A DNA stretch of 64,000 bases from positions 96,001-160,000 of IMG/VR virus record IMGVR_UViG_3300023218_000040; one strand, given 5' to 3'. This DNA is from a virus. Taxonomy: Duplodnaviria; Caudoviricetes. Shown here one piece after another: positions 46,569 through 57,164 of this stretch (the stretch's first letter is position 1; each line of letters starts with the position of its first letter). The notes under the pieces are model-generated. The model had not been told where the DNA came from, did not search any database, and saw only the letters and a program-made list of their open reading frames with translations. Both the position numbers and the translations under genes were made by a program.

Positions 46569-46690
46569 GGTTAATCCGTAATAGTTTTCGAGTCGCCATT
46601 GCCTAATTTTGTCCGAATACTTTCCTGAATTTCGAACATGTCAATTCATACCTTTTGTTTGGTTTCCTAGTCATAAGCCGAAGATAGGGC

Positions 46691-46719
46691 TGGACAAACC
46701 ACTCGTCAAATGCTATACT
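46691..46719 (+). promoter_or_regulatory. sigma70-type promoter TGGACA-N17-TATACT
   Basis: 17-bp spacer, TG extended -10, upstream of GGAG RBS and ATG 46744. Confidence 0.65.
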
Positions 46720-46743
46720 TGCCTCACGAAATTGGAGAACCCC

Positions 46744-48042
46744 ATGAAGATCATTCCCATCGGACCATCGTTGGTTGTGCTGGTCGGCCCGTCTGGGTCG
46801 GGCAAGAGCACGTTTTGCGAGCGTCATTTTAACGCTCGTGAGGTCGTGTCGTCCGATGCCATCCGGGAGGAATTTACCGGGGATAAGCGCCGTCAGGACA
46901 AGAACGACGTAGTGTTCGCCGAATTCCATCGTCGAATCGCTGTTAAGATTCAGGCGGGTCAGCGGGTGGTGGCGGATGCCACGCATCTGCGGGACAAGGA
47001 CCGCCGTGCGACTGCCGAGGTTGGGCTGGTACTCAATGTTCCGGTGACTTACGTTGTGATCGACCGTCCTGTGGAACAGAAGCTCCACACGGGCGGGTGG
47101 CGACTGGATGTCCGGATGAAGGGAGGAATCGGTCTCATTGAGGCTCACAGCGAGACCTTCAAGGCCAATGAGAACAAGATTCTCGCTGGCGACAACATCA
47201 AGGGAGTACAGGTCGTGGATACCCGTATCGACAACTTCGAAGTTGCACAGCCGATGGCTCGTGACGGGGCGGTCACGGCTCTGGCTTCCCGTGGCTTCAA
47301 GAACGTGCGGGTGATCGGTGACGTTCACGGAAACGTGGAGGGTTTTGATCAGGCGACCGACGCTTCTTCGGACACGTTCTTCCTGTTCCTGGGTGACCTT
47401 CTGGACTACGATCCGAGGGGCATTCATGTAGTGTGTGAGGTTGTGTCCATGATGCGTCAGGGTCACGCCATCAACATTCGAGGTAACCACGAGAAGAAGA
47501 TCACCAATTGGGTAATCGGTGAGCGTGGCGACGGGTTCCGTGGTCGCATCTCGCATGGCAACGATGCCACCACGAATGTTGTCAAGGCGATGTCCCCGAG
47601 CCAGCGTGCCAAATGGGAAGCTGATTTCCTGGCTCTGGTGGAGATGTCTCCGGACTGGATCCAGCTTGGTGAGTGGCTGTTTACGCACGGTGCGGTGCAC
47701 CCGGATATGTGGGACAACTCCATGTTCCGGGCGCACAAGAACTCCAAGCTGGAGTCCTTCGCCATGTTTGGTGAGACGACTGGTGAGGTCGTGAATGGCT
47801 TTCCGGTGCGGAAGTACGATTGGGTTGACCTGATCCCGGCACAGCACCATGCTGTGGTGGGTCACGCAATCCTCTCGGTCGATGACCCGGTTATCAAGAC
47901 TGGAACGTTGGGTGGCGAGGCTGTATTCCTCGACACGGGTTCTTCCAAGGATCTCGATGGTGCCCCTGGCCATCTGTCCTGGATGGATTTCAGCATCAAC
48001 CACAACCAACTGGTTTTCCAGGGCTTCGGTCGTCAGCAGTGA
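46744..48042 (+). CDS. Polynucleotide kinase-phosphatase (Pnkp; P-loop kinase plus metallophosphoesterase)
   Basis: GPSGSGKST, SSDAIR and DATHL; IGDVHGN, GDLLD, RGNHE, THG, VVGH and LDTG. Start moved to ATG 46744. Confidence 0.88.
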   Translation: MKIIPIGPSLVVLVGPSGSGKSTFCERHFNAREVVSSDAIREEFTGDKRRQDKNDVVFAEFHRRIAVKIQAGQRVVADATHLRDKDRRATAEVGLVLNVPVTYVVIDRPVEQKLHTGGWRLDVRMKGGIGLIEAHSETFKANENKILAGDNIKGVQVVDTRIDNFEVAQPMARDGAVTALASRGFKNVRVIGDVHGNVEGFDQATDASSDTFFLFLGDLLDYDPRGIHVVCEVVSMMRQGHAINIRGNHEKKITNWVIGERGDGFRGRISHGNDATTNVVKAMSPSQRAKWEADFLALVEMSPDWIQLGEWLFTHGAVHPDMWDNSMFRAHKNSKLESFAMFGETTGEVVNGFPVRKYDWVDLIPAQHHAVVGHAILSVDDPVIKTGTLGGEAVFLDTGSSKDLDGAPGHLSWMDFSINHNQLVFQGFGRQQ

Positions 48043-48135: not shown

Positions 48136-49620
48136 ATGAGGAAATCTAATATGTCTGTGATATCTCGGTTGCCTATTATAACAGCATGCACAGGAATCTT
48201 TTTGCTCATGCTATCTGCTTTACTTTTCATACATGAAAAGTATTCTACTCCTACTATTCCCATTATTCCTTCTTCTGTAAACCTGGAAACAGATATTGCT
48301 TCTGCTCTGGATGAAGTCATACAACATCTGGAGAAAGAATTCGTTAACGAGACTCCCCTGAAACGAGAAGAGATGCATCAAATTGCAGTAGATGCAATTT
48401 TGAAAAAGATAGGAGACCAACACGGTAAATTTCTTACTAACGATGAATATGGTCGGTTAAAGGATCGGATGACACCGACACATTATGGTGGATTAAACAT
48501 CCGAGTTGCAAAGCACCTAAGTGGTAATGATAAAGCTGAGATATTGATCCTTGAAATATTTGATGGTTCTCCGGTAGGTACATTCGGAGTGCGCCCTGGA
48601 GATACTATTAGTCATGTAAATGGGATTATGGTAACACCGGACAATTGGGAGGATATGGTCAAGAGTGTTCGTGGCCCAATTGGTTCAGATGTCCGTATCA
48701 CTGTGAAACGTGATAGTAGGGTGAAATTGGGAGAACTAACTTTTCAGCGAGTTCGTTCGAAGCTACAAACCATATTTGCTCATCATGAAAATTGCTACAT
48801 GCATTTGCGTATTAGTTTGTTTATTAATAGCCCAGAACAACAGGTATTTGATGCGGTTGAACCCATTCTAAAGGAATGTGATGGTGGTGTTCGTGGTATC
48901 GTTCTTGATGTCAGAAATAATCCTGGTGGATCGTTGCTCGGAGCCATCAAGTTAGTTGACATGTTTCTTGATCCGGATGATGTGGTTGTTAAGACCATAG
49001 GTCGTGCAGCAGAGAACAATATGACCTATAAAGCCGAACATGAAGCTGTGTTCCCAAAATCAATTCCAATGGTTGCTTTGATAAATGGACGTTCAGCATC
49101 AGCATCTGAAATTCTTGTTGGTGCGTTGAAGAAGTATAGAACGCTTTTTGCTGTGCTAGGCGAGAAATCATATGGAAAGGGATCTGTGCAAACTGTGTTT
49201 CCAGTGAATGGTGGCACGTCGGCGGTGAAGATAACGACCGCCATATATCTGGCCGGTGGTACCATCGAAATCGATGGAGTAGGCATCAAGCCAAACGTAG
49301 AAGTGAAACAGACAATCACTCCTGGTCAAACGGATATGCAGCGTGTAGTAAACACTACCTTGATTTTGAATTCCATGAACCCGGCAGTGGATCACCAACT
49401 GCGCATGGGATACCATTTTGTTGCTCATCTGGCAAATAACAAAGCAGTAGTTTCCATATCACCTGACCGTGGTGTTCTTCAGGCGTTGGAGTCCGTCGAG
49501 GCTCAAAAGCCTGTGGTAGTTACCGGATCGTTGTGCAGGGAAGCTGGCTTGAGGGGATGCCCCCGACCAAGAGAGGTCTTGCAGGTTCCCTCCTTCGGGA
49601 CACCAGGAAACCCTCCCTGA
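48136..49620 (+). CDS. C-terminal processing protease, family S41A (CtpA/Prc-like), with N-terminal anchor and PDZ domain
   Basis: Hydrophobic N-terminal helix; PDZ (GVRPGDTI..VNG...GPIGS.V.I.V.R); LDVRNNPGG; SASASE (Ser); KSYGKGSVQ (Lys); GVGIKP. Confidence 0.9.
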   Translation: MRKSNMSVISRLPIITACTGIFLLMLSALLFIHEKYSTPTIPIIPSSVNLETDIASALDEVIQHLEKEFVNETPLKREEMHQIAVDAILKKIGDQHGKFLTNDEYGRLKDRMTPTHYGGLNIRVAKHLSGNDKAEILILEIFDGSPVGTFGVRPGDTISHVNGIMVTPDNWEDMVKSVRGPIGSDVRITVKRDSRVKLGELTFQRVRSKLQTIFAHHENCYMHLRISLFINSPEQQVFDAVEPILKECDGGVRGIVLDVRNNPGGSLLGAIKLVDMFLDPDDVVVKTIGRAAENNMTYKAEHEAVFPKSIPMVALINGRSASASEILVGALKKYRTLFAVLGEKSYGKGSVQTVFPVNGGTSAVKITTAIYLAGGTIEIDGVGIKPNVEVKQTITPGQTDMQRVVNTTLILNSMNPAVDHQLRMGYHFVAHLANNKAVVSISPDRGVLQALESVEAQKPVVVTGSLCREAGLRGCPRPREVLQVPSFGTPGNPP

Positions 49621-49691: not shown

Positions 49692-49720
49692 TTGACTAAA
49701 AATGTCTGCGGGTTTATACT
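49692..49720 (+). promoter_or_regulatory. sigma70-type promoter TTGACT-N17-TATACT
   Basis: Near-consensus -35 and -10 with a 17-bp spacer, upstream of GGAG and GTG 49755. Confidence 0.75.
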
Positions 49721-49754
49721 ACCCTTCCGACATAGCTTCCGTCTGGAGAATTCA

Positions 49755-51020
49755 GTGCGTTACTACAAGTTCCCGGAGATCGAAACCATCGATGATGTGC
49801 TTCCGGCCATTAAGGACCGGGATGAATTTGTCGTGGCCGAGCGAGATTGGGGAACGGTGATCGACTACCAGATCACCCTGCCGGATTCGTTCCCGTGTCC
49901 GGTTCGGGAGGCGCATACCGCCAAGCAGCAATACAATTACATGGTGCGCCGTGAGTGCCGTGGCCTGAAGTTCGGCCTGAACGGCAAGCTGATCGCTCGT
50001 CCGTATCATAAGTTTTTCAATCTGGGCGAGCGTCCGGAGACCACCGACGACGAGCTTTCGTCTTTGGGTGCGTTCCATAAGAACTTCGTGATCATGCCGA
50101 AGCTGGATGGTTCAATGATCCATCCGATCACTTGGAATGACACCATGTACTTTTGCACCCGTATGGGTATCACCGATGTTGCGAATCAGGCATACGAGTT
50201 CGCTGGAAACAACGGGATGTACGAGCGCTTTTCCTATGATATGTGCCAGCGTGGACTGACCCCAATCTTCGAGTGGTGCTCTCGCAAGCAACGCATCGTG
50301 CTGGACTATCCGCAGGACTCGTTAATCTTGACTGCCATTCGTGTGAATCGCACGGGTGAGTACCTGACCCGTGGCAAGATGCAGGCTTTGGCTGTTCCGT
50401 ACGGGGTTCCGATGGTGGATCTGTACGACGGCTCATGGGACGGCATTGAGAAGTTTAGCAAACACGTTCGTGACATCGAAAACGCCGAGGGCTACGTCAT
50501 TCGCTGGGATGACGGCAACATGATCAAGATGAAGGGTGAGTGGTACGTGGCGATCCATCGTGCCAAGGATTCCATCATGCACGAGAAGCGCATCATAGCT
50601 TTGATCTTGAACGACAGTCTGGATGATGTGATGCCGCACCTGTTGCCGCAGGACTACGACCGTCTGGACCGGTACCGCAATGACTTCTGGCGTACCGTGG
50701 ACCATGTGGAGAAAACCCTGGACACCAAGGTTTCGATCTGTCGTTCGTTCACTGATGCCACTGGCATGGAAGAGAACGAGGCGAAGGGTTGGTTCGCACG
50801 TCAGGACGTGTCGCAGTACAAGGGGGTTCTGGCTCCGTGGAAGGGTCTTTTGTTCGCTACGTGGGACAAGAAGGATAAGACTCGGAACCTGTTCATCGAT
50901 TACCTGCGCAAGCGGTTCTCGTTGGATGTAGATAACTCTAAGGCCAATGGCTCGCAGGCTGTAGTGGATGAGCTTCGTGACGCTTTCATGCTTCCGGAAA
51001 AGAAGTGGGAGGATTACTGA
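49755..51020 (+). CDS. RNA ligase, T4 Rnl1-like
   Basis: RRECRGL.F, KFFNLGE, motif I KLDGSM, FEW, EGYVI and KMK. GTG start with GGAG RBS. Confidence 0.88.
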   Translation: MRYYKFPEIETIDDVLPAIKDRDEFVVAERDWGTVIDYQITLPDSFPCPVREAHTAKQQYNYMVRRECRGLKFGLNGKLIARPYHKFFNLGERPETTDDELSSLGAFHKNFVIMPKLDGSMIHPITWNDTMYFCTRMGITDVANQAYEFAGNNGMYERFSYDMCQRGLTPIFEWCSRKQRIVLDYPQDSLILTAIRVNRTGEYLTRGKMQALAVPYGVPMVDLYDGSWDGIEKFSKHVRDIENAEGYVIRWDDGNMIKMKGEWYVAIHRAKDSIMHEKRIIALILNDSLDDVMPHLLPQDYDRLDRYRNDFWRTVDHVEKTLDTKVSICRSFTDATGMEENEAKGWFARQDVSQYKGVLAPWKGLLFATWDKKDKTRNLFIDYLRKRFSLDVDNSKANGSQAVVDELRDAFMLPEKKWEDY

Positions 51021-53410: not shown

Positions 53411-53441
53411 TGGTTAAATCCTCGAACGTGATGAACTTAAG

Positions 53442-53447
53442 TATTTA
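53442..53447 (-). promoter_or_regulatory. T4-late-like promoter core (ATAAATA, minus strand)
   Basis: Upstream of the fibre-like gene and divergent from the tmRNA promoter. Confidence 0.5.
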
Positions 53448-53454
53448 TCAATCC

Positions 53455-53485
53455 TTGACTTATTCACTTATATGGGATATAAATA
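53455..53485 (+). promoter_or_regulatory. Composite promoter: TTGACT-N17-TATAAA, with the -10 also an exact T4 late TATAAATA
   Basis: TTGACT 53455-53460 and TATAAATA 53478-53485, directly upstream of the tmRNA. Confidence 0.72.
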
Positions 53486-53489
53486 AAAG

Positions 53490-53850
53490 TACAGTTGCTT
53501 GAGCGAACACTTGAAGCTCTACGGACGGCGGTTCGATTCCGCCCATCTCCACTAAACGATGGACATAGAGTAGCAGTGAGTGTACACCGGTACTCTATTT
53601 TCATTAGCGGCAGATAACGCACAACTGCCACATCTCTGGGGATGCCCTGGTTTTGACGTGGTGATGGATGGCTAGTAGTGAGACTGTCGGGTTAGACTAC
53701 CCCCGTAAAGGTTCACCCAAAGTATCTGCAAACGATGCTGTATATGACGAGGAGGTTCTTCCTCTCGCTGCATAAGCGGGAGCCAAGAATTCCTACTGCG
53801 GCTTAACAACCCGCAACGTCCGGGGTCTAACGAGCCTTGTTACCAAAATC
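53490..53850 (+). ncRNA. ssrA: Circularly permuted (two-piece) tmRNA; outer boundaries approximate
   Basis: T arm GGCGG-TTCGATT-CCGCC (53527-53543) and 3' acceptor strand CATCTCC-A (53544-53551) come before the 5' strand GGGGATG (53638-53644). These give a 7-bp stem with the G3:U alanine determinant. Tag ORF 53728-53775 encodes ANDAVYDEEVLPLAA*. Confidence 0.92.
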
Positions 53851-53854
53851 CTAG

Positions 53855-53881
53855 AAAGGGGAGCCTGTGTGCTCCCCTTTT
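53855..53881 (+). terminator. Intrinsic terminator after the tmRNA
   Basis: AAAGGGGAGC-CTGTGT-GCTCCCCTTTT perfect inverted repeat with a U tract. Confidence 0.8.
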
Positions 53882-53986: not shown

Positions 53987-54307
53987 ATGGATACAAATAG
54001 CAAGATGAGCTATGCGACTGGTCGAAAGCTCAGAATTATTGAAGAAAACATTGGAGAGGATTGGCGAAATCTTCATCCGGGGAAGTCTATTGATGCTGTG
54101 TATAATATGATTACCGGAGACAGTCGTAAGAACTTGTTCTGCAAGATCGACCCGGATATAAAGTGCAAGCTGGATGAGATGGTGGATTTCCATGATACAA
54201 AGATGGCCGAGCTTGTTGAAAAGCTGATCGAAGAGGAATATGATAGGTTTGTTATGATGCGCAATGCCAAAGTGAACGAGATGGCATCGCAGTTTGCCAT
54301 TGGTTAA
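53987..54307 (+). CDS. Hypothetical protein, possible ribbon-helix-helix-like DNA-binding C-terminus
   Basis: GAGGAG RBS before ATG 53987; LFCKIDPDIKCKLDEMV....MAELVEKLIEE pattern. Confidence 0.55.
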   Translation: MDTNSKMSYATGRKLRIIEENIGEDWRNLHPGKSIDAVYNMITGDSRKNLFCKIDPDIKCKLDEMVDFHDTKMAELVEKLIEEEYDRFVMMRNAKVNEMASQFAIG

Positions 54308-55001: not shown

Positions 55002-57164
55002 ATGCACATCAAAGAAGATATCAAGTTGGACTACTCGGACGTTCTTATTTGTCCCAAAAGGTCAACTCTTGGTAGTCGTTCTGCCGTAGAACTAATCCGA
55101 ACCTACAAATTCCGTCACGGCAAGAAATATTGGAGTGGCGTGCCTATTATGGCAGCCAACATGGATGGCGTCGGTACTTTCTCCATGGCCAAGGTGCTTC
55201 AGAAGCATGGCATGATGACAGTCATTCGAAAGCACTACACGTTGAACGATTGGCAGAAGAATGCTAATGATTTGGATTGGAACTACATTGTGGCATGCAC
55301 GGGCAGCAATGCGATCTTTGATAACGATGCAACCGACTATAAACTCCTTCATCAAGTATGCGAGCGTTGGCCAGTACGGCATATATGCATCGATGTTGCG
55401 AACGGTTACCAGGAGAACTTTGTCGAATTCGTTGAGCAAGTTCGCAACGACTTCCCTGAACATACTCTGATTGCTGGAAATGTCTGCACGCCCGAAATCA
55501 CCGAGCAGTTGATCCTGAGCGGTGCCGACATTGTGAAGGTGGGTATTGGTCCAGGATGTCTTGCTGCTGGCAGTAGAATCCTCATGTCGAATGGGTTGTA
55601 CAAAAACATTGAGGATGTACAAGCGGGTGATCGGGTAATAGTACAAAGTGGTAATGCCGCTACAGTTAACCGGCAATTCTCTACCGGATATCGACAGGTC
55701 ACTTCAGTGACAAATGGTTCTTTTCATCGACCTTTGATTCTGACGCCAGATCATCGATGTTTCTTAGGAGACCTATCATCCACTTCGAAATCTACTGTTC
55801 AGTCTCGTGGCTATCGAAAGATCTTAGAAAAGCCCACCAGAACCGGAGAATCCAAACTGCGATGGATGCCCATCGAAGATGCGGAACATACTGTAGCATT
55901 GATGCCTAAAACAATCGAATTCGAATTGCCTGATTCTTTCGATGTAGACATTTCTGAACACTTTACTCGAAACCATGAGTATAAAACTTGTGTCGAGTCT
56001 AATTATGACTTCGGATATGTACTTGGTTTCTTTCTTGGTGACGGAAATGCCAATGTTCGCACAAATCATACTGTGGATGGTGATTCCACATCCGGACAAC
56101 TGCGTTGGTATCTGAATGCCAACGACACGGTGATGATTCAGAAGCTAGTGCAAGCAATCGGCAATGTAACCGGAAAGGAACCAGTATTGGAAACGAGTGG
56201 TTCGGTTACACATGTCGTTCTGTATTCCAAACAGTGGACTGAATTCTTTGCCACATTTGGGAAGCAAGAGAAAAAGCACATCCGAGAAGAATTCATGTGT
56301 CTGAACAAAGAATACAATACCGGTCTTCTGGATGGATTGGTTGATTCTGATGGATTCACCAGTAATGATGGTCGCATCGGATTTACTAACACATCAGAAT
56401 CATTGATTGAGTTGTTCGATGTGGTTTGCTATCTGGTGCATGGTAGCTTCCCGACATCTTCGTCTAAAGGAATCTGTCATTCTGCCCTTATACCGAATAC
56501 TACGAAAGAAGCCTTCGTTAGTCGATTGAATGTTTCCCATGAGGCCCGACTGTTAGATGATTACGGTGTTGTAAAAATTCTAAACCGTACCGAACATAAC
56601 ATTGAGGTTGAGGTTTTTGATTTGGAAATCGATGACCCATCACATAGTTTCATTGCTAACAATATGATTGTTCATAATTCGGTCTGTACGACTCGCATCG
56701 TGACTGGCGTTGGCTATCCGCAGCTATCTGCGGTAATCGAGTGCGCTGACATTGCTCACCAACACAAAGGCATGGTCATCGCTGATGGTGGATGCACTGT
56801 TCCTGGTGACGTTGCCAAGGCTTTTGGTGGCGGTGCTGATTTCGTGATGCTTGGTGGTATGCTCGCTTTCCATGACGAGTCTGAAGAAGTTGATGAGTCT
56901 GATGGTACGGTGAAGTTCTACGGAATGAGCAGCAACGATGCAATGGGTCGTCATGGTGCTCGAAAGGATGGATATCGTACAGCCGAAGGTAAGGCTGTAG
57001 AGATGGAGTCCCGTGGTCCTGTGAACAACACTGTCGAGGAAATCTTGGGCGGTCTCAAGTCTACCTGCACGTATGTTGGTGCGGAGTCACTGAAGGAGCT
57101 AAGTAAGCGTACCACATTCGTACGAGTCAACCGAACTCACAACAGAGTATTTGGAGACGGGTAA
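55002..57164 (+). CDS. guaC: GMP reductase interrupted by an intein
   Basis: KLDYSDVLI.PKRSTL.SR, ANMDGVG, CIDVANGY, KVGIGPG[intein]SVCTTR, ADGGC, FVMLGGM, FYGMSS and LGGLKSTCTYVGA. Confidence 0.93.
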   Translation: MHIKEDIKLDYSDVLICPKRSTLGSRSAVELIRTYKFRHGKKYWSGVPIMAANMDGVGTFSMAKVLQKHGMMTVIRKHYTLNDWQKNANDLDWNYIVACTGSNAIFDNDATDYKLLHQVCERWPVRHICIDVANGYQENFVEFVEQVRNDFPEHTLIAGNVCTPEITEQLILSGADIVKVGIGPGCLAAGSRILMSNGLYKNIEDVQAGDRVIVQSGNAATVNRQFSTGYRQVTSVTNGSFHRPLILTPDHRCFLGDLSSTSKSTVQSRGYRKILEKPTRTGESKLRWMPIEDAEHTVALMPKTIEFELPDSFDVDISEHFTRNHEYKTCVESNYDFGYVLGFFLGDGNANVRTNHTVDGDSTSGQLRWYLNANDTVMIQKLVQAIGNVTGKEPVLETSGSVTHVVLYSKQWTEFFATFGKQEKKHIREEFMCLNKEYNTGLLDGLVDSDGFTSNDGRIGFTNTSESLIELFDVVCYLVHGSFPTSSSKGICHSALIPNTTKEAFVSRLNVSHEARLLDDYGVVKILNRTEHNIEVEVFDLEIDDPSHSFIANNMIVHNSVCTTRIVTGVGYPQLSAVIECADIAHQHKGMVIADGGCTVPGDVAKAFGGGADFVMLGGMLAFHDESEEVDESDGTVKFYGMSSNDAMGRHGARKDGYRTAEGKAVEMESRGPVNNTVEEILGGLKSTCTYVGAESLKELSKRTTFVRVNRTHNRVFGDG
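55557..56678 (+). mobile_element. Intein (374 aa) with LAGLIDADG endonuclease
   Basis: Starts CLAAGSRILM, block B LTPDHRC, VLGFFLGDGN and LDGLVDSDG, ends VFDLEI...MIVHN followed by Ser+1. Confidence 0.92.

What the first reader, a model, noticed from the sequence alone, without database searches (positions are those of the whole stretch)
53455..53881. Phage-encoded circularly permuted (two-piece) tmRNA
Seen in sequence: the T arm and 3' acceptor strand (53527-53551, ending CTCCA then CTA, so CCA is not encoded) precede the 5' strand GGGGATG (53638). They pair into a 7-bp stem with the G3:U alanyl-tRNA synthetase determinant. An 86-nt intervening segment with hairpins (ATAGAGTA...TACTCTAT, GGCAG...CTGCC) separates them. 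The tag ORF ANDAVYDEEVLPLAA follows, then a clean terminator. Established knowledge: permuted tmRNA genes are known from Alphaproteobacteria, some cyanobacteria and some Betaproteobacteria, and C-terminal LAA is the ClpXP degron. Inference: the phage acquired and retains a two-piece ssrA, which needs host RNase P and 3'-end processing and hints at an alphaproteobacterial host.
Basis: partly seen in the sequence, partly recalled or inferred. Interest (0 to 1): 0.85.

Follow-up and report, generated by a model that had tools for sequence, protein, structure and literature searches.

The report
Two-piece tmRNA gene in jumbo phage
This large uncultured phage carries a real, rearranged ("two-piece") copy of tmRNA, the RNA that frees stalled ribosomes; such phage genes are already known, so the find is ordinary, though related phages keep it beside one small protein gene and swap its tRNA-like half.

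Summary
Rfam's tmRNA_permuted model hits window 53491-53775 at 95.4 bits (cut-off 47, E 3e-17), and ARAGORN also calls a permuted tmRNA. The tag ANDAVYDEEVLPLAA is right; ARAGORN's 31-residue tag is a fallback frame.

The carrier is a Rak2/GAP32/Atu_ph07-like T4-type jumbo phage (204 kb held, a 360-kb copy exists). No SmpB, CCA-adding enzyme or integrase is in the 204 kb held.

Nine close homologues from metagenomes show compensatory changes in the acceptor stem, T stem, P2, pseudoknot 1, the stop-codon hairpin and the terminator. The gene is therefore under selection as a tmRNA.

The alphaproteobacterial-host hint is not supported. The alpha model scores 29 bits (cut-off 50) and the beta model is best at 68.7 (cut-off 84). 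The tRNA-like domain is the canonical flavour, not the alpha one.

Phage two-piece tmRNAs are published (Buchholz 2022: 53 among 402 tmRNA-bearing phage genomes). This scan has noted them 478 times in at least 375 genomes, so this is a new member of a known kind.

Two side results may be new:
- In 27 of 30 testable contigs a permuted tmRNA lies just upstream of a conserved ~100-aa protein (window 53987-54307).
- Related phages have exchanged the tRNA-like domain between canonical and alpha flavours while keeping the tag half.

The parts
53455..53485 (+). Sigma-70-type promoter: -35 TTGACT (53455-60), 17-nt spacer, -10 TATAAA(TA) (53478-85). The predicted start is about 53490-91.
   Evidence: Read. 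TATAAATA is kept at the same distance in 8 of the 9 family members; in the ninth, L258, the contig ends inside the box. TTGAC is kept in 5 of 5 aligned phage genes. The Rfam hit begins at 53491. TATAAATA is also the T4 late-promoter consensus, but it is not enriched in the window (2 seen, 1.4 expected), so late use is not supported.
53491..53551 (+). Acceptor piece: P2a strand 53491-95, P2 inner strand 53517-23, T arm 53527-43, acceptor 3' strand 53544-50, discriminator A 53551. CCA is not encoded (CTA follows).
   Evidence: Rfam alignment and covariation.
53552..53637 (+). Intervening segment of 86 nt, removed on maturation. It forms two hairpins and holds no ORF.
   Evidence: Fold z -3.65. 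In the closest homologues the spacer is either 7 nt or 78-90 nt, and its sequence is not conserved. It is therefore dispensable filler.
53638..53727 (+). Start of the coding piece: acceptor 5' strand 53638-44 (predicted RNase P site 5' of G53638), D-loop analogue 53645-56, P2 inner strand 53657-63, P2a strand 53683-87, pseudoknot 1 (S1 53688-91 x 53702-05; S2 53699-701 x 53710-12), and the resume context with U -5 and A -4.
53728..53775 (+). Tag reading frame: resume codon GCA, 15 codons reading ANDAVYDEEVLPLAA, stop TAA 53773-75.
   Evidence: Rfam alignment to the tag consensus. Homologous tags occur in relatives, for example ANDADFGEEDFALAA, ANDSFYDGEYALAA and ANDANYAVDEALPLAA.
53764..53782 (+). 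Helix 5a: a hairpin with the stop codon in its AUAA tetraloop.
   Evidence: Pair 53769-53778 shows four pair types in nine sequences.
53797..53815 (+). Helix 5b: a second hairpin with UUAA in its loop. It aligns with the tag end and helix 5 of other beta-type genes but is out of frame here.
   Evidence: GC to AU change at 53801-53811.
53835..53848 (+). Conserved 3'-domain motif CCTTGTTACCAAAA, a signature of beta-type two-piece tmRNAs. Its pairing partner is unresolved.
   Evidence: It matches the RF01850 consensus and is nearly invariant in alignment A2.
53858..53881 (+). Intrinsic terminator: stem 53858-64 x 53871-77, loop CTGTGT, U tract 53878-81. This is the 3' end of the coding piece.
   Evidence: compensatory changes in all nine homologues.
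53987..54307 (+). orf106, a conserved ~100-aa protein of unknown function that lies just downstream of a permuted tmRNA in related phages. It is a linked gene, not part of the RNA.
   Evidence: A weak ribbon-helix-helix hint only; no fold match.

Best explanation
This is a functional, circularly permuted tmRNA (ssrA) gene of a T4-type jumbo phage. It belongs to a phage sub-lineage of the beta-type two-piece tmRNAs.

Proposed mechanism, in order:
1. Host RNA polymerase transcribes one precursor from a strong sigma-70-type promoter (start about 53490) to the terminator (about 53881).
2. Host RNase P cuts 5' of G53638.
3. Host 3' nucleases trim back to A53551, and the host CCA-adding enzyme builds CCA.
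4. The 86-nt spacer is discarded.
5. The acceptor piece (about 61 nt plus CCA) and the coding piece (about 240 nt) stay together through the 7-bp acceptor stem and helix P2.
6. Host AlaRS charges the RNA through G3.U70 and A73.
7. Host SmpB and EF-Tu deliver it to ribosomes stalled on broken mRNAs.
8. Translation resumes at GCA 53728 and adds ANDAVYDEEVLPLAA, whose C-terminal LAA should send the product to ClpXP-type proteases.

Likely benefit: extra ribosome-rescue capacity while mRNAs are being destroyed during infection or by host RNase defences.

Shown here: the gene's identity, its anatomy and purifying selection on its helices. Inferred: transcription, processing, charging, tagging and the benefit.
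For: - Rfam RF04321 scores 95.4 bits against a cut-off of 47, full length. ARAGORN calls a permuted tmRNA.
- G3.U, A73, a canonical T loop and a resume context with U -5 and A -4 are present.
- Nine homologues show compensatory changes: acceptor pair 5 is AU/GC/UA with G3.U in 9 of 9; the T stem has two GC-CG swaps; P2 inner CG-UA; P2a AU-GC; PK1 S1 GC-CG; PK1 S2 CG-UA; helix 5a shows four pair types; helix 5b GC-AU; the terminator also varies in step.
- The tags are homologous across the family.
- Promoter boxes are conserved.
- The context is phage on both sides: a tail-fibre-like gene and orf106, the latter shared with other jumbo phage contigs. A Gp23 capsid gene is 56-62% identical to Phosso, GAP32, CBB and Atu_ph07.
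- GC content is uniform across the locus.
- Ten of the 12 phage tRNA genes end in CCA; tRNA-Cys and tRNA-Arg do not, so the phage already relies on a CCA-adding enzyme.
- Precedent exists: Buchholz 2022 (PMC9004378), Al-Shayeb 2020 (PMC7162821) and the tmRNA database 2025 (PMC11915505).
Against: - There are no expression data. Only four DNA metagenome runs of one study hold the sequence, and none is RNA.
- The gene falls below the gathering score of every lineage-specific model.
- P2 has a U.U mismatch, though it is conserved in 9 of 9.
- CCA is not encoded here, unlike 44 of 47 beta-type viral genes.
- SmpB is absent from the 204 kb held, so function rests on compatibility with an unknown host.
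- The record is only about 55% complete.
Confidence: 0.88

Rival explanations
1. The RNA is made but acts mainly as a decoy or modulator. It would titrate host SmpB or tag host proteins for destruction rather than rescue ribosomes for the phage. Alternatively it is a decaying relic.
For: A tRNA-like-domain-only tmRNA of mycobacteriophage DS6A inhibits host tmRNA (PMC4131195, PMC11915505). Buchholz 2022 proposes selective tagging of host proteins. No phage SmpB was found. The gene is sub-threshold on the lineage models.
Against: The full tag frame, resume context, PK1 and the stop-codon hairpin are kept, with compensatory changes in nine homologues. That fits a translated tag, not a bare decoy or a relic.
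Confidence: 0.08
2. It is host DNA: a prophage attachment-site fragment of ssrA, or a chimeric assembly that joins bacterial DNA to a phage contig.
For: Temperate elements often integrate into ssrA and carry fragments of it (PMC4383910).
Against: - The whole gene is present, not just a 3' fragment.
- No integrase is in the 204 kb.
- GC content is uniform.
- Phage genes flank it on both sides, and the same tmRNA-orf106 layout recurs in 27 of 30 testable contigs.
- Three runs hold 72-99% of the 8-kb stretch.
- A twin protein lies on a 360-kb contig.
Confidence: 0.01
3. The tag is ARAGORN's 31-residue frame (VHPK...PTAA, stop at 53804-06) rather than the 15-residue frame.
For: ARAGORN prints it. 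Its stop lies in the loop of helix 5b, which aligns with the tag end of other beta-type genes.
Against: ARAGORN itself says 'Tag not identified'. The frame is basic and not tag-like. The Rfam alignment and all eight homologues resume at the GCA of an AND... frame that ends ...LAA before the first hairpin.
Confidence: 0.02

Closest known systems
Phage-encoded two-piece tmRNAs of T4-like myophages (Methylophilales phage Melnitz, pelagimyophages, cyanomyophages; Buchholz et al. 2022, PMC9004378)
   Same: A permuted ssrA carried by a lytic T4-type myophage, with its own early-type promoter, no phage SmpB reported, and an AND...AA type tag. The paper counts 53 two-piece genes among 402 tmRNA-bearing phage genomes.
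   Different: Melnitz's gene is alpha-type and has a glutamine riboswitch. The gene here is beta-like, has no riboswitch hit, sits in a ~360-kb Rak2/Atu_ph07-like jumbo phage and lies next to orf106.
Betaproteobacterial two-piece tmRNA (Rfam RF01850; Sharkady and Williams 2004, cited from PMC9004378)
   Same: It is the best-scoring lineage model, over its full length. The gene has a canonical T loop, a CTGGTTTYGAC D-analogue and the 3' motif CCTTGTTACCAAA followed by a terminator. Its T arm and acceptor are identical over 23 nt to Gallionellaceae genes and to 58 permuted genes in IMG/VR.
   Different: It scores 68.7 against a gathering score of 84. The tag is longer and acidic (15 aa, against ANDE[RKN]FA[LM]AA). 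There are two hairpins after the tag, an 86-nt spacer and no encoded CCA.
Alphaproteobacterial two-piece tmRNA (Rfam RF01849; Caulobacter type), as in Sinorhizobium phage Phosso (unannotated there) and IMG/VR contig G001
   Same: The same permuted gene order. In G001 it occupies the same slot, directly upstream of an orf106 homologue.
   Different: The alpha model gives only 29.4 bits here. The alpha T loop (GGGGCGGTACC) and ATAGGATCGAC are absent.
One-piece tmRNAs of large phages (mycobacteriophage Bxz1 group, Bacillus phage G; PMC4131195; IMG/VR contig G003)
   Same: The same presumed role. G003's standard tmRNA shares the 20-nt 5' domain GGGGATGCCCTGGTTTTGAC with this gene.
   Different: They are not permuted, and G003's lies inside a tRNA cluster.

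Membership tests
tmRNA, permuted form (Rfam RF04321) | Covariance-model score at or above the curated gathering score | tested here: met
   95.4 bits against 47, model positions 1-213 of 213, E 3.2e-17
tmRNA, permuted form (Rfam RF04321) | tRNA-like domain: 7-bp acceptor stem with G3.U70, discriminator A, T arm with a TPsiC-type loop | tested here: met
   53638-44 x 53544-50 with G53640.U53548; A53551; T arm GGCGG-TTCGATT-CCGCC. G.U is invariant in 9 of 9 homologues, with covariation at pair 5 and in the T stem.
tmRNA, permuted form (Rfam RF04321) | Gene order permuted: the 3' acceptor half lies upstream of the 5' half, separated by a removable spacer | tested here: met
   The acceptor 3' strand at 53544-50 precedes the 5' strand at 53638-44. 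Spacer length varies from 7 to 90 nt among close homologues.
tmRNA, permuted form (Rfam RF04321) | Tag reading frame after pseudoknot 1, resuming at an Ala codon, ending in a hydrophobic xAA, with the stop codon in helix 5 | tested here: met
   GCA 53728 to TAA 53773, reading ANDAVYDEEVLPLAA. PK1 and helix 5a are supported by compensatory changes.
tmRNA, permuted form (Rfam RF04321) | Cleavage into two pieces, alanylation, SmpB binding and trans-translation | not testable with these tools
   No RNA run holds the locus. No SmpB is in the 204 kb held. The host is unknown.
beta_tmRNA (Rfam RF01850) | Score at or above gathering (84 bits) | tested here: not met
   68.7 bits over the full model at 53441-53881. 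This is the best of the three lineage models. The closest homologues score 53-86 bits, and more distant orf106-linked ones 93-99.
beta_tmRNA (Rfam RF01850) | 3' domain with the CCTTGTTACCAAA motif and a terminal hairpin | tested here: met
   Motif at 53835-48 and hairpin at 53858-77.
alpha_tmRNA (Rfam RF01849) | Score at or above gathering (50 bits), with the alpha-flavour T loop and D-analogue | tested here: not met
   29.4 bits. The T loop is canonical and ATAGGATCGAC is absent (contrast).
cyano_tmRNA (Rfam RF01851) | Score at or above gathering (70 bits) | tested here: not met
   44.3 bits, covering the tRNA-like part only (model positions 54-122).

The most novel reading that the evidence does not exclude
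The gene is one copy of a mobile 'tmRNA slot' of T4-type jumbo phages. In this slot a permuted tmRNA is kept directly upstream of a conserved ~100-aa protein (orf106). The tRNA-like domain, or the whole RNA, is repeatedly exchanged between canonical (beta-like) and alpha flavours while the phage-type tag half can be retained. On this reading the exchange refits the phage's ribosome-rescue RNA to the SmpB, AlaRS and EF-Tu of a new host, and orf106 is a functional partner or regulator of the RNA.

Evidence so far:
- 27 of 30 testable orf106 loci have a permuted tmRNA upstream.
- On the orf106 tree the alpha label needs at least 3 changes on well-supported branches.
- Contigs L275 and L279 share promoter, PK1 3' half, tag, 3' domain and terminator (86% identity over 205 bp) but have unrelated tRNA-like domains.

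That the exchange happened is likely. That it is host adaptation, and that orf106 works with the RNA, is untested.
Probability: 0.35. Interest if true: 0.55.

Novelty: new member of a known kind. Interest (0 to 1): 0.35.

Why it matters
By itself it adds one more phage two-piece tmRNA to a class that is already published and frequent in metagenomes. It does show that standard tools under-report the class:
- ARAGORN fails to find the tag here.
- ARAGORN misses the homologues with 4-nt or 400-nt spacers altogether.
- The cultured Sinorhizobium phage Phosso has an unannotated copy.

The wider pattern would give a tractable natural experiment on which parts of tmRNA must match the host. That pattern is a conserved tmRNA-plus-small-protein module in jumbo phages, with exchange of the tRNA-like domain. 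It would also name a candidate protein partner.

Tried and rejected
- **Phage DNA matches.** BLASTN of the locus and of 17 kb around it against 50,697 phage records gave no match.
- **ARAGORN's tag.** The 31-residue tag was rejected as a fallback frame.
- **Host from the T arm.** The 23-nt T-arm/acceptor word hits mostly standard tmRNAs of Patescibacteria in bacterial genomes, so it is not diagnostic.
- **Host from a class-wide search.** An RF01850 search around a Gallionellaceae genome found 1 of 151 genomes over the cut-off, and no names are given.
- **Host from the S41 protease.** Its nearest relatives are 37% identical or less and give no host.
- **S41 protease as a tmRNA partner.** The tail-specific-type S41 protease 4 kb upstream is absent from G001, G002, G003, Phosso and Atu_ph07 and has an N-terminal membrane anchor. 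There is no co-occurrence support.
- **orf106 function.** No Pfam or PHROG hit at E 0.001 or better; only a weak RHH_1 hint; no PDB fold match; no match in cultured phages. It is not related to the gene downstream of Phosso's tmRNA.
- **Expression.** No RNA runs hold the locus.
- **Late promoter.** TATAAATA is not enriched in the window.
- **Alternative pairing.** The minimum-energy co-fold proposed 53518-25 x 53849-55 instead of P2. I did not adopt it because the covariation supports P2.
- **Spacer function.** Spacer sequences are not conserved.
- **3' motif partner.** The pairing partner of CCTTGTTACCAAAA was not resolved.

Full report
**Observation**

- T arm GGCGG-TTCGATT-CCGCC at 53527-43.
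- Acceptor 3' strand CATCTCC at 53544-50 and discriminator A at 53551, followed by CTA rather than CCA.
- An 86-nt spacer at 53552-53637.
- Acceptor 5' strand GGGGATG at 53638-44. The stem has seven pairs with G.U at the third.
- Tag frame GCA 53728 to TAA 53773-75, reading ANDAVYDEEVLPLAA.
- A GC-rich hairpin with a U tract at 53858-81.
- Upstream promoter TTGACT, 17 nt, TATAAA (53455-83).

Rfam's merged model for permuted tmRNAs (RF04321) matches 53491-53775 over its whole length. The score is 95.4 bits against a gathering score of 47, E 3.2e-17. ARAGORN independently calls a permuted tmRNA but reports 'Tag not identified' and prints a fallback frame. The spacer folds well beyond shuffled controls (z -3.65).

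**The carrier**

The window is bases 96001-160000 of a 204,014-bp IMG/VR virus record estimated 55% complete.
- It has a T4-type Gp23 capsid gene. This is 61.8% identical to Sinorhizobium phage Phosso (469 kb) and about 56-57% identical to Atu_ph07, GAP32, CBB, XbC2 and relatives of 340-490 kb. The phage is therefore a Rak2/Atu_ph07-like jumbo myovirus.
- A protein identical to one in the window lies on a 360,469-bp contig.
- Around the tmRNA lie a kinase/phosphatase (Pnkp-like), an S41 protease, a T4 Rnl1-type RNA ligase, a tail-fibre-like gene and an intein-bearing GMP reductase/IMPDH-like gene.
- The record has 12 tRNA genes elsewhere.
- It has no SmpB, no CCA-adding enzyme family and no integrase.
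- GC content is even across the locus.

**Is it under selection as a tmRNA?**

DNA searches against cultured phages found nothing. Homologues came from elsewhere. The small gene just downstream, orf106 (53987-54307), has relatives in 5 IMG/VR contigs and 38 metagenome loci.

Eight of these loci carry tmRNAs alignable with this one along their whole length. Their tags are homologous, for example ANDADFGEEDFALAA, ANDSFYDGEYALAA, ANDSVFDGGFALAA and ANDANYDEGFALAA. ANDANYAVDEALPLAA, from the 5'-truncated contig L274, belongs to the wider family but is not one of the eight.

With the spacer cut out, the nine sequences show compensatory changes in every helix.

| Helix | Change seen in nine sequences |
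|---|---|
| Acceptor stem, pair 5 | AU, GC and UA; G3.U in 9 of 9 |
| T stem | two GC-CG swaps |
| P2 inner (53517-23 x 53657-63) | CG-UA, plus a conserved U.U |
| P2a (53491-95 x 53683-87) | AU-GC |
| Pseudoknot 1, stem 1 | GC-CG |
| Pseudoknot 1, stem 2 | CG-UA |
| Helix 5a (stop codon in a tetraloop) | four pair types at one position |
| Helix 5b | GC-AU |
| Terminator | varies in step |

- The -10 box TATAAATA is kept in 8 of the 9; in L258 the contig ends inside it. TTGAC is kept in five of five aligned genes.
- Spacers are either 7 nt (CCA plus four) or 78-90 nt, and they are unrelated in sequence. The hairpinned 86-nt segment is therefore filler, not a conserved element.
- TATAAATA is also the T4 late consensus, but it occurs only twice in the window against 1.4 expected. 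I therefore read the promoter as sigma-70-type.

**Mechanism (inferred from established tmRNA biology)**

1. One precursor is transcribed.
2. RNase P cuts 5' of G53638.
3. The 3' end is trimmed to A53551.
4. CCA is added by the host enzyme. Two of the phage's 12 tRNA genes (tRNA-Cys and tRNA-Arg) also lack encoded CCA. Among beta-type viral tmRNAs 44 of 47 encode it, while several members of this sub-lineage do not.
5. The two pieces are held together by the acceptor stem and P2.
6. Host AlaRS charges the RNA.
7. Host SmpB and EF-Tu deliver it to stalled ribosomes.
8. The tag ends in LAA, a ClpXP-type degron.

None of these steps could be observed. Only four DNA runs of one study hold the sequence, and none is RNA.

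**Which lineage, and what about the host?**

- The alpha model gives 29.4 bits (cut-off 50).
- The cyano model gives 44.3 bits, on the tRNA-like part only.
- The beta model gives 68.7 bits over its full length, below its cut-off of 84.
- The gene has the canonical T loop and the beta-type 3' motif CCTTGTTACCAAAA.
- Its 23-nt T-arm/acceptor word occurs in 68 IMG/VR contigs. ARAGORN of them permuted, and those tested are beta-type at 95-167 bits.

By contrast, phage Phosso has an alpha-type gene (108 bits) with a ~400-nt spacer. It is unannotated in the record, and ARAGORN misses it. The related AP-J-162 paper lists one tmRNA and none for Atu_ph07, which agrees with my search (PMC11242549).

The alphaproteobacterial-host hint is therefore not supported. 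The host remains unknown, and Melnitz shows that phage and host tmRNA types can differ (PMC9004378).

**Novelty**

Phage two-piece tmRNAs are published.
- Buchholz 2022 found tmRNAs in 402 of 18,146 phage genomes, 53 of them two-piece and mostly aquatic.
- Huge phages are reported to carry tmRNA and SmpB (PMC7162821).
- The 2025 tmRNA database holds 79 phage sequences.
- This scan's own notes mention the class 478 times in at least 375 genomes.

This is a new member of a known kind.

**Side results**

- **Linkage to orf106.** Of 30 orf106 loci with enough upstream DNA, 27 have a permuted tmRNA upstream on the same strand. orf106 has no family assignment. It shows a weak ribbon-helix-helix hint, an all-helical model at pLDDT 74 and no fold match.
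- **Different types in the same slot.** The closest large relative, G001 (376 kb, capsid 84% identical), has an alpha-type tmRNA in the same slot. On the orf106 tree the alpha label needs at least three changes on well-supported branches.
- **Exchange of the tRNA-like domain.** Contigs L275 and L279 share promoter, the 3' half of pseudoknot 1, tag, 3' domain and terminator at 86% identity over 205 bp. Their tRNA-like domains are unrelated, one canonical and one alpha-flavoured. The domain was therefore exchanged inside the gene. I found no paper describing this in the library searched.
- **Second hairpin after the tag.** Here and in the close homologues, a second hairpin (53797-53815) aligns with the tag end and helix 5 of other beta-type genes but is out of frame. 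This suggests a remodelled tag end.

Noticed in passing
window 53987-54307; loci L250-L294: orf106 is a conserved ~100-aa protein (SYATxRKIRIIE...RKNLFCK...LDEM). It lies directly downstream of a permuted tmRNA in 27 of 30 testable phage or metagenome contigs. Its function is unknown; there is only a weak ribbon-helix-helix hint.
   Followed up: partly
L275:590-1040 versus L279:1040-1500: Two related phage contigs share tmRNA promoter, tag half, 3' domain and terminator (86% identity over 205 bp). Their tRNA-like domains are unrelated, one canonical and one alpha-flavoured. The tmRNA is therefore chimeric, made by exchange of that domain.
   Followed up: partly
L198:1458-2147 (-) = PV764938.1 349596-350198: Cultured Sinorhizobium phage Phosso has an unannotated alpha-type permuted tmRNA (RF04321 113 bits, alpha 108 bits; tag ANDNVSTKVALAA). 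Its spacer is about 400 nt and ARAGORN misses the gene. No convincing ORF was seen in the spacer.
   Followed up: partly
L212:9962-10385 (G001, 376-kb IMG/VR contig): The closest large relative (capsid 84% identical) carries an alpha-type two-piece tmRNA (tag ANDNFAPMAMAA) in the same slot upstream of its orf106 homologue. In that contig the Pnkp gene lies just downstream instead of 6 kb upstream.
   Followed up: yes
L208:6079-6457 (-) (G003, 320-kb IMG/VR contig): Another jumbo phage contig has a standard one-piece tmRNA (tag AADNAPLALAA) inside a tRNA cluster. It shares this gene's 20-nt 5' domain.
   Followed up: no
window 48136-49620: An S41 (Tsp/Ctp-type) protease with a PDZ domain and an N-terminal membrane anchor lies 4 kb upstream of the tmRNA. 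It is absent from five related jumbo phages, and its nearest homologues are 37% identical or less. There is no co-occurrence support for a link to the tmRNA.
   Followed up: partly
window 46609-48042 and 49692-51020: A Pnkp-like kinase/phosphatase and a T4 Rnl1-type RNA ligase, a tRNA-repair pair, lie within 7 kb upstream of the tmRNA. Together they look like a loose 'translation-apparatus maintenance' neighbourhood.
   Followed up: no
window 55002-57164: An IMPDH/GMP-reductase-family gene is interrupted by an intein with Hint and LAGLIDADG hits.
   Followed up: no
window 53797-53815: A second hairpin with UUAA in its loop follows the tag. It aligns with the tag end and helix 5 of other beta-type tmRNAs but is in the +1 frame, which suggests a ~31-nt insertion or duplication that created the present LAA end.
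   Followed up: partly
L051, L053, L032, L068 (IMG/VR): Some beta-type phage tmRNAs have unusually long 28-29-residue tags, for example AEKADTFDFTAMSFTGNTVTGSSKIAFAA.
   Followed up: no
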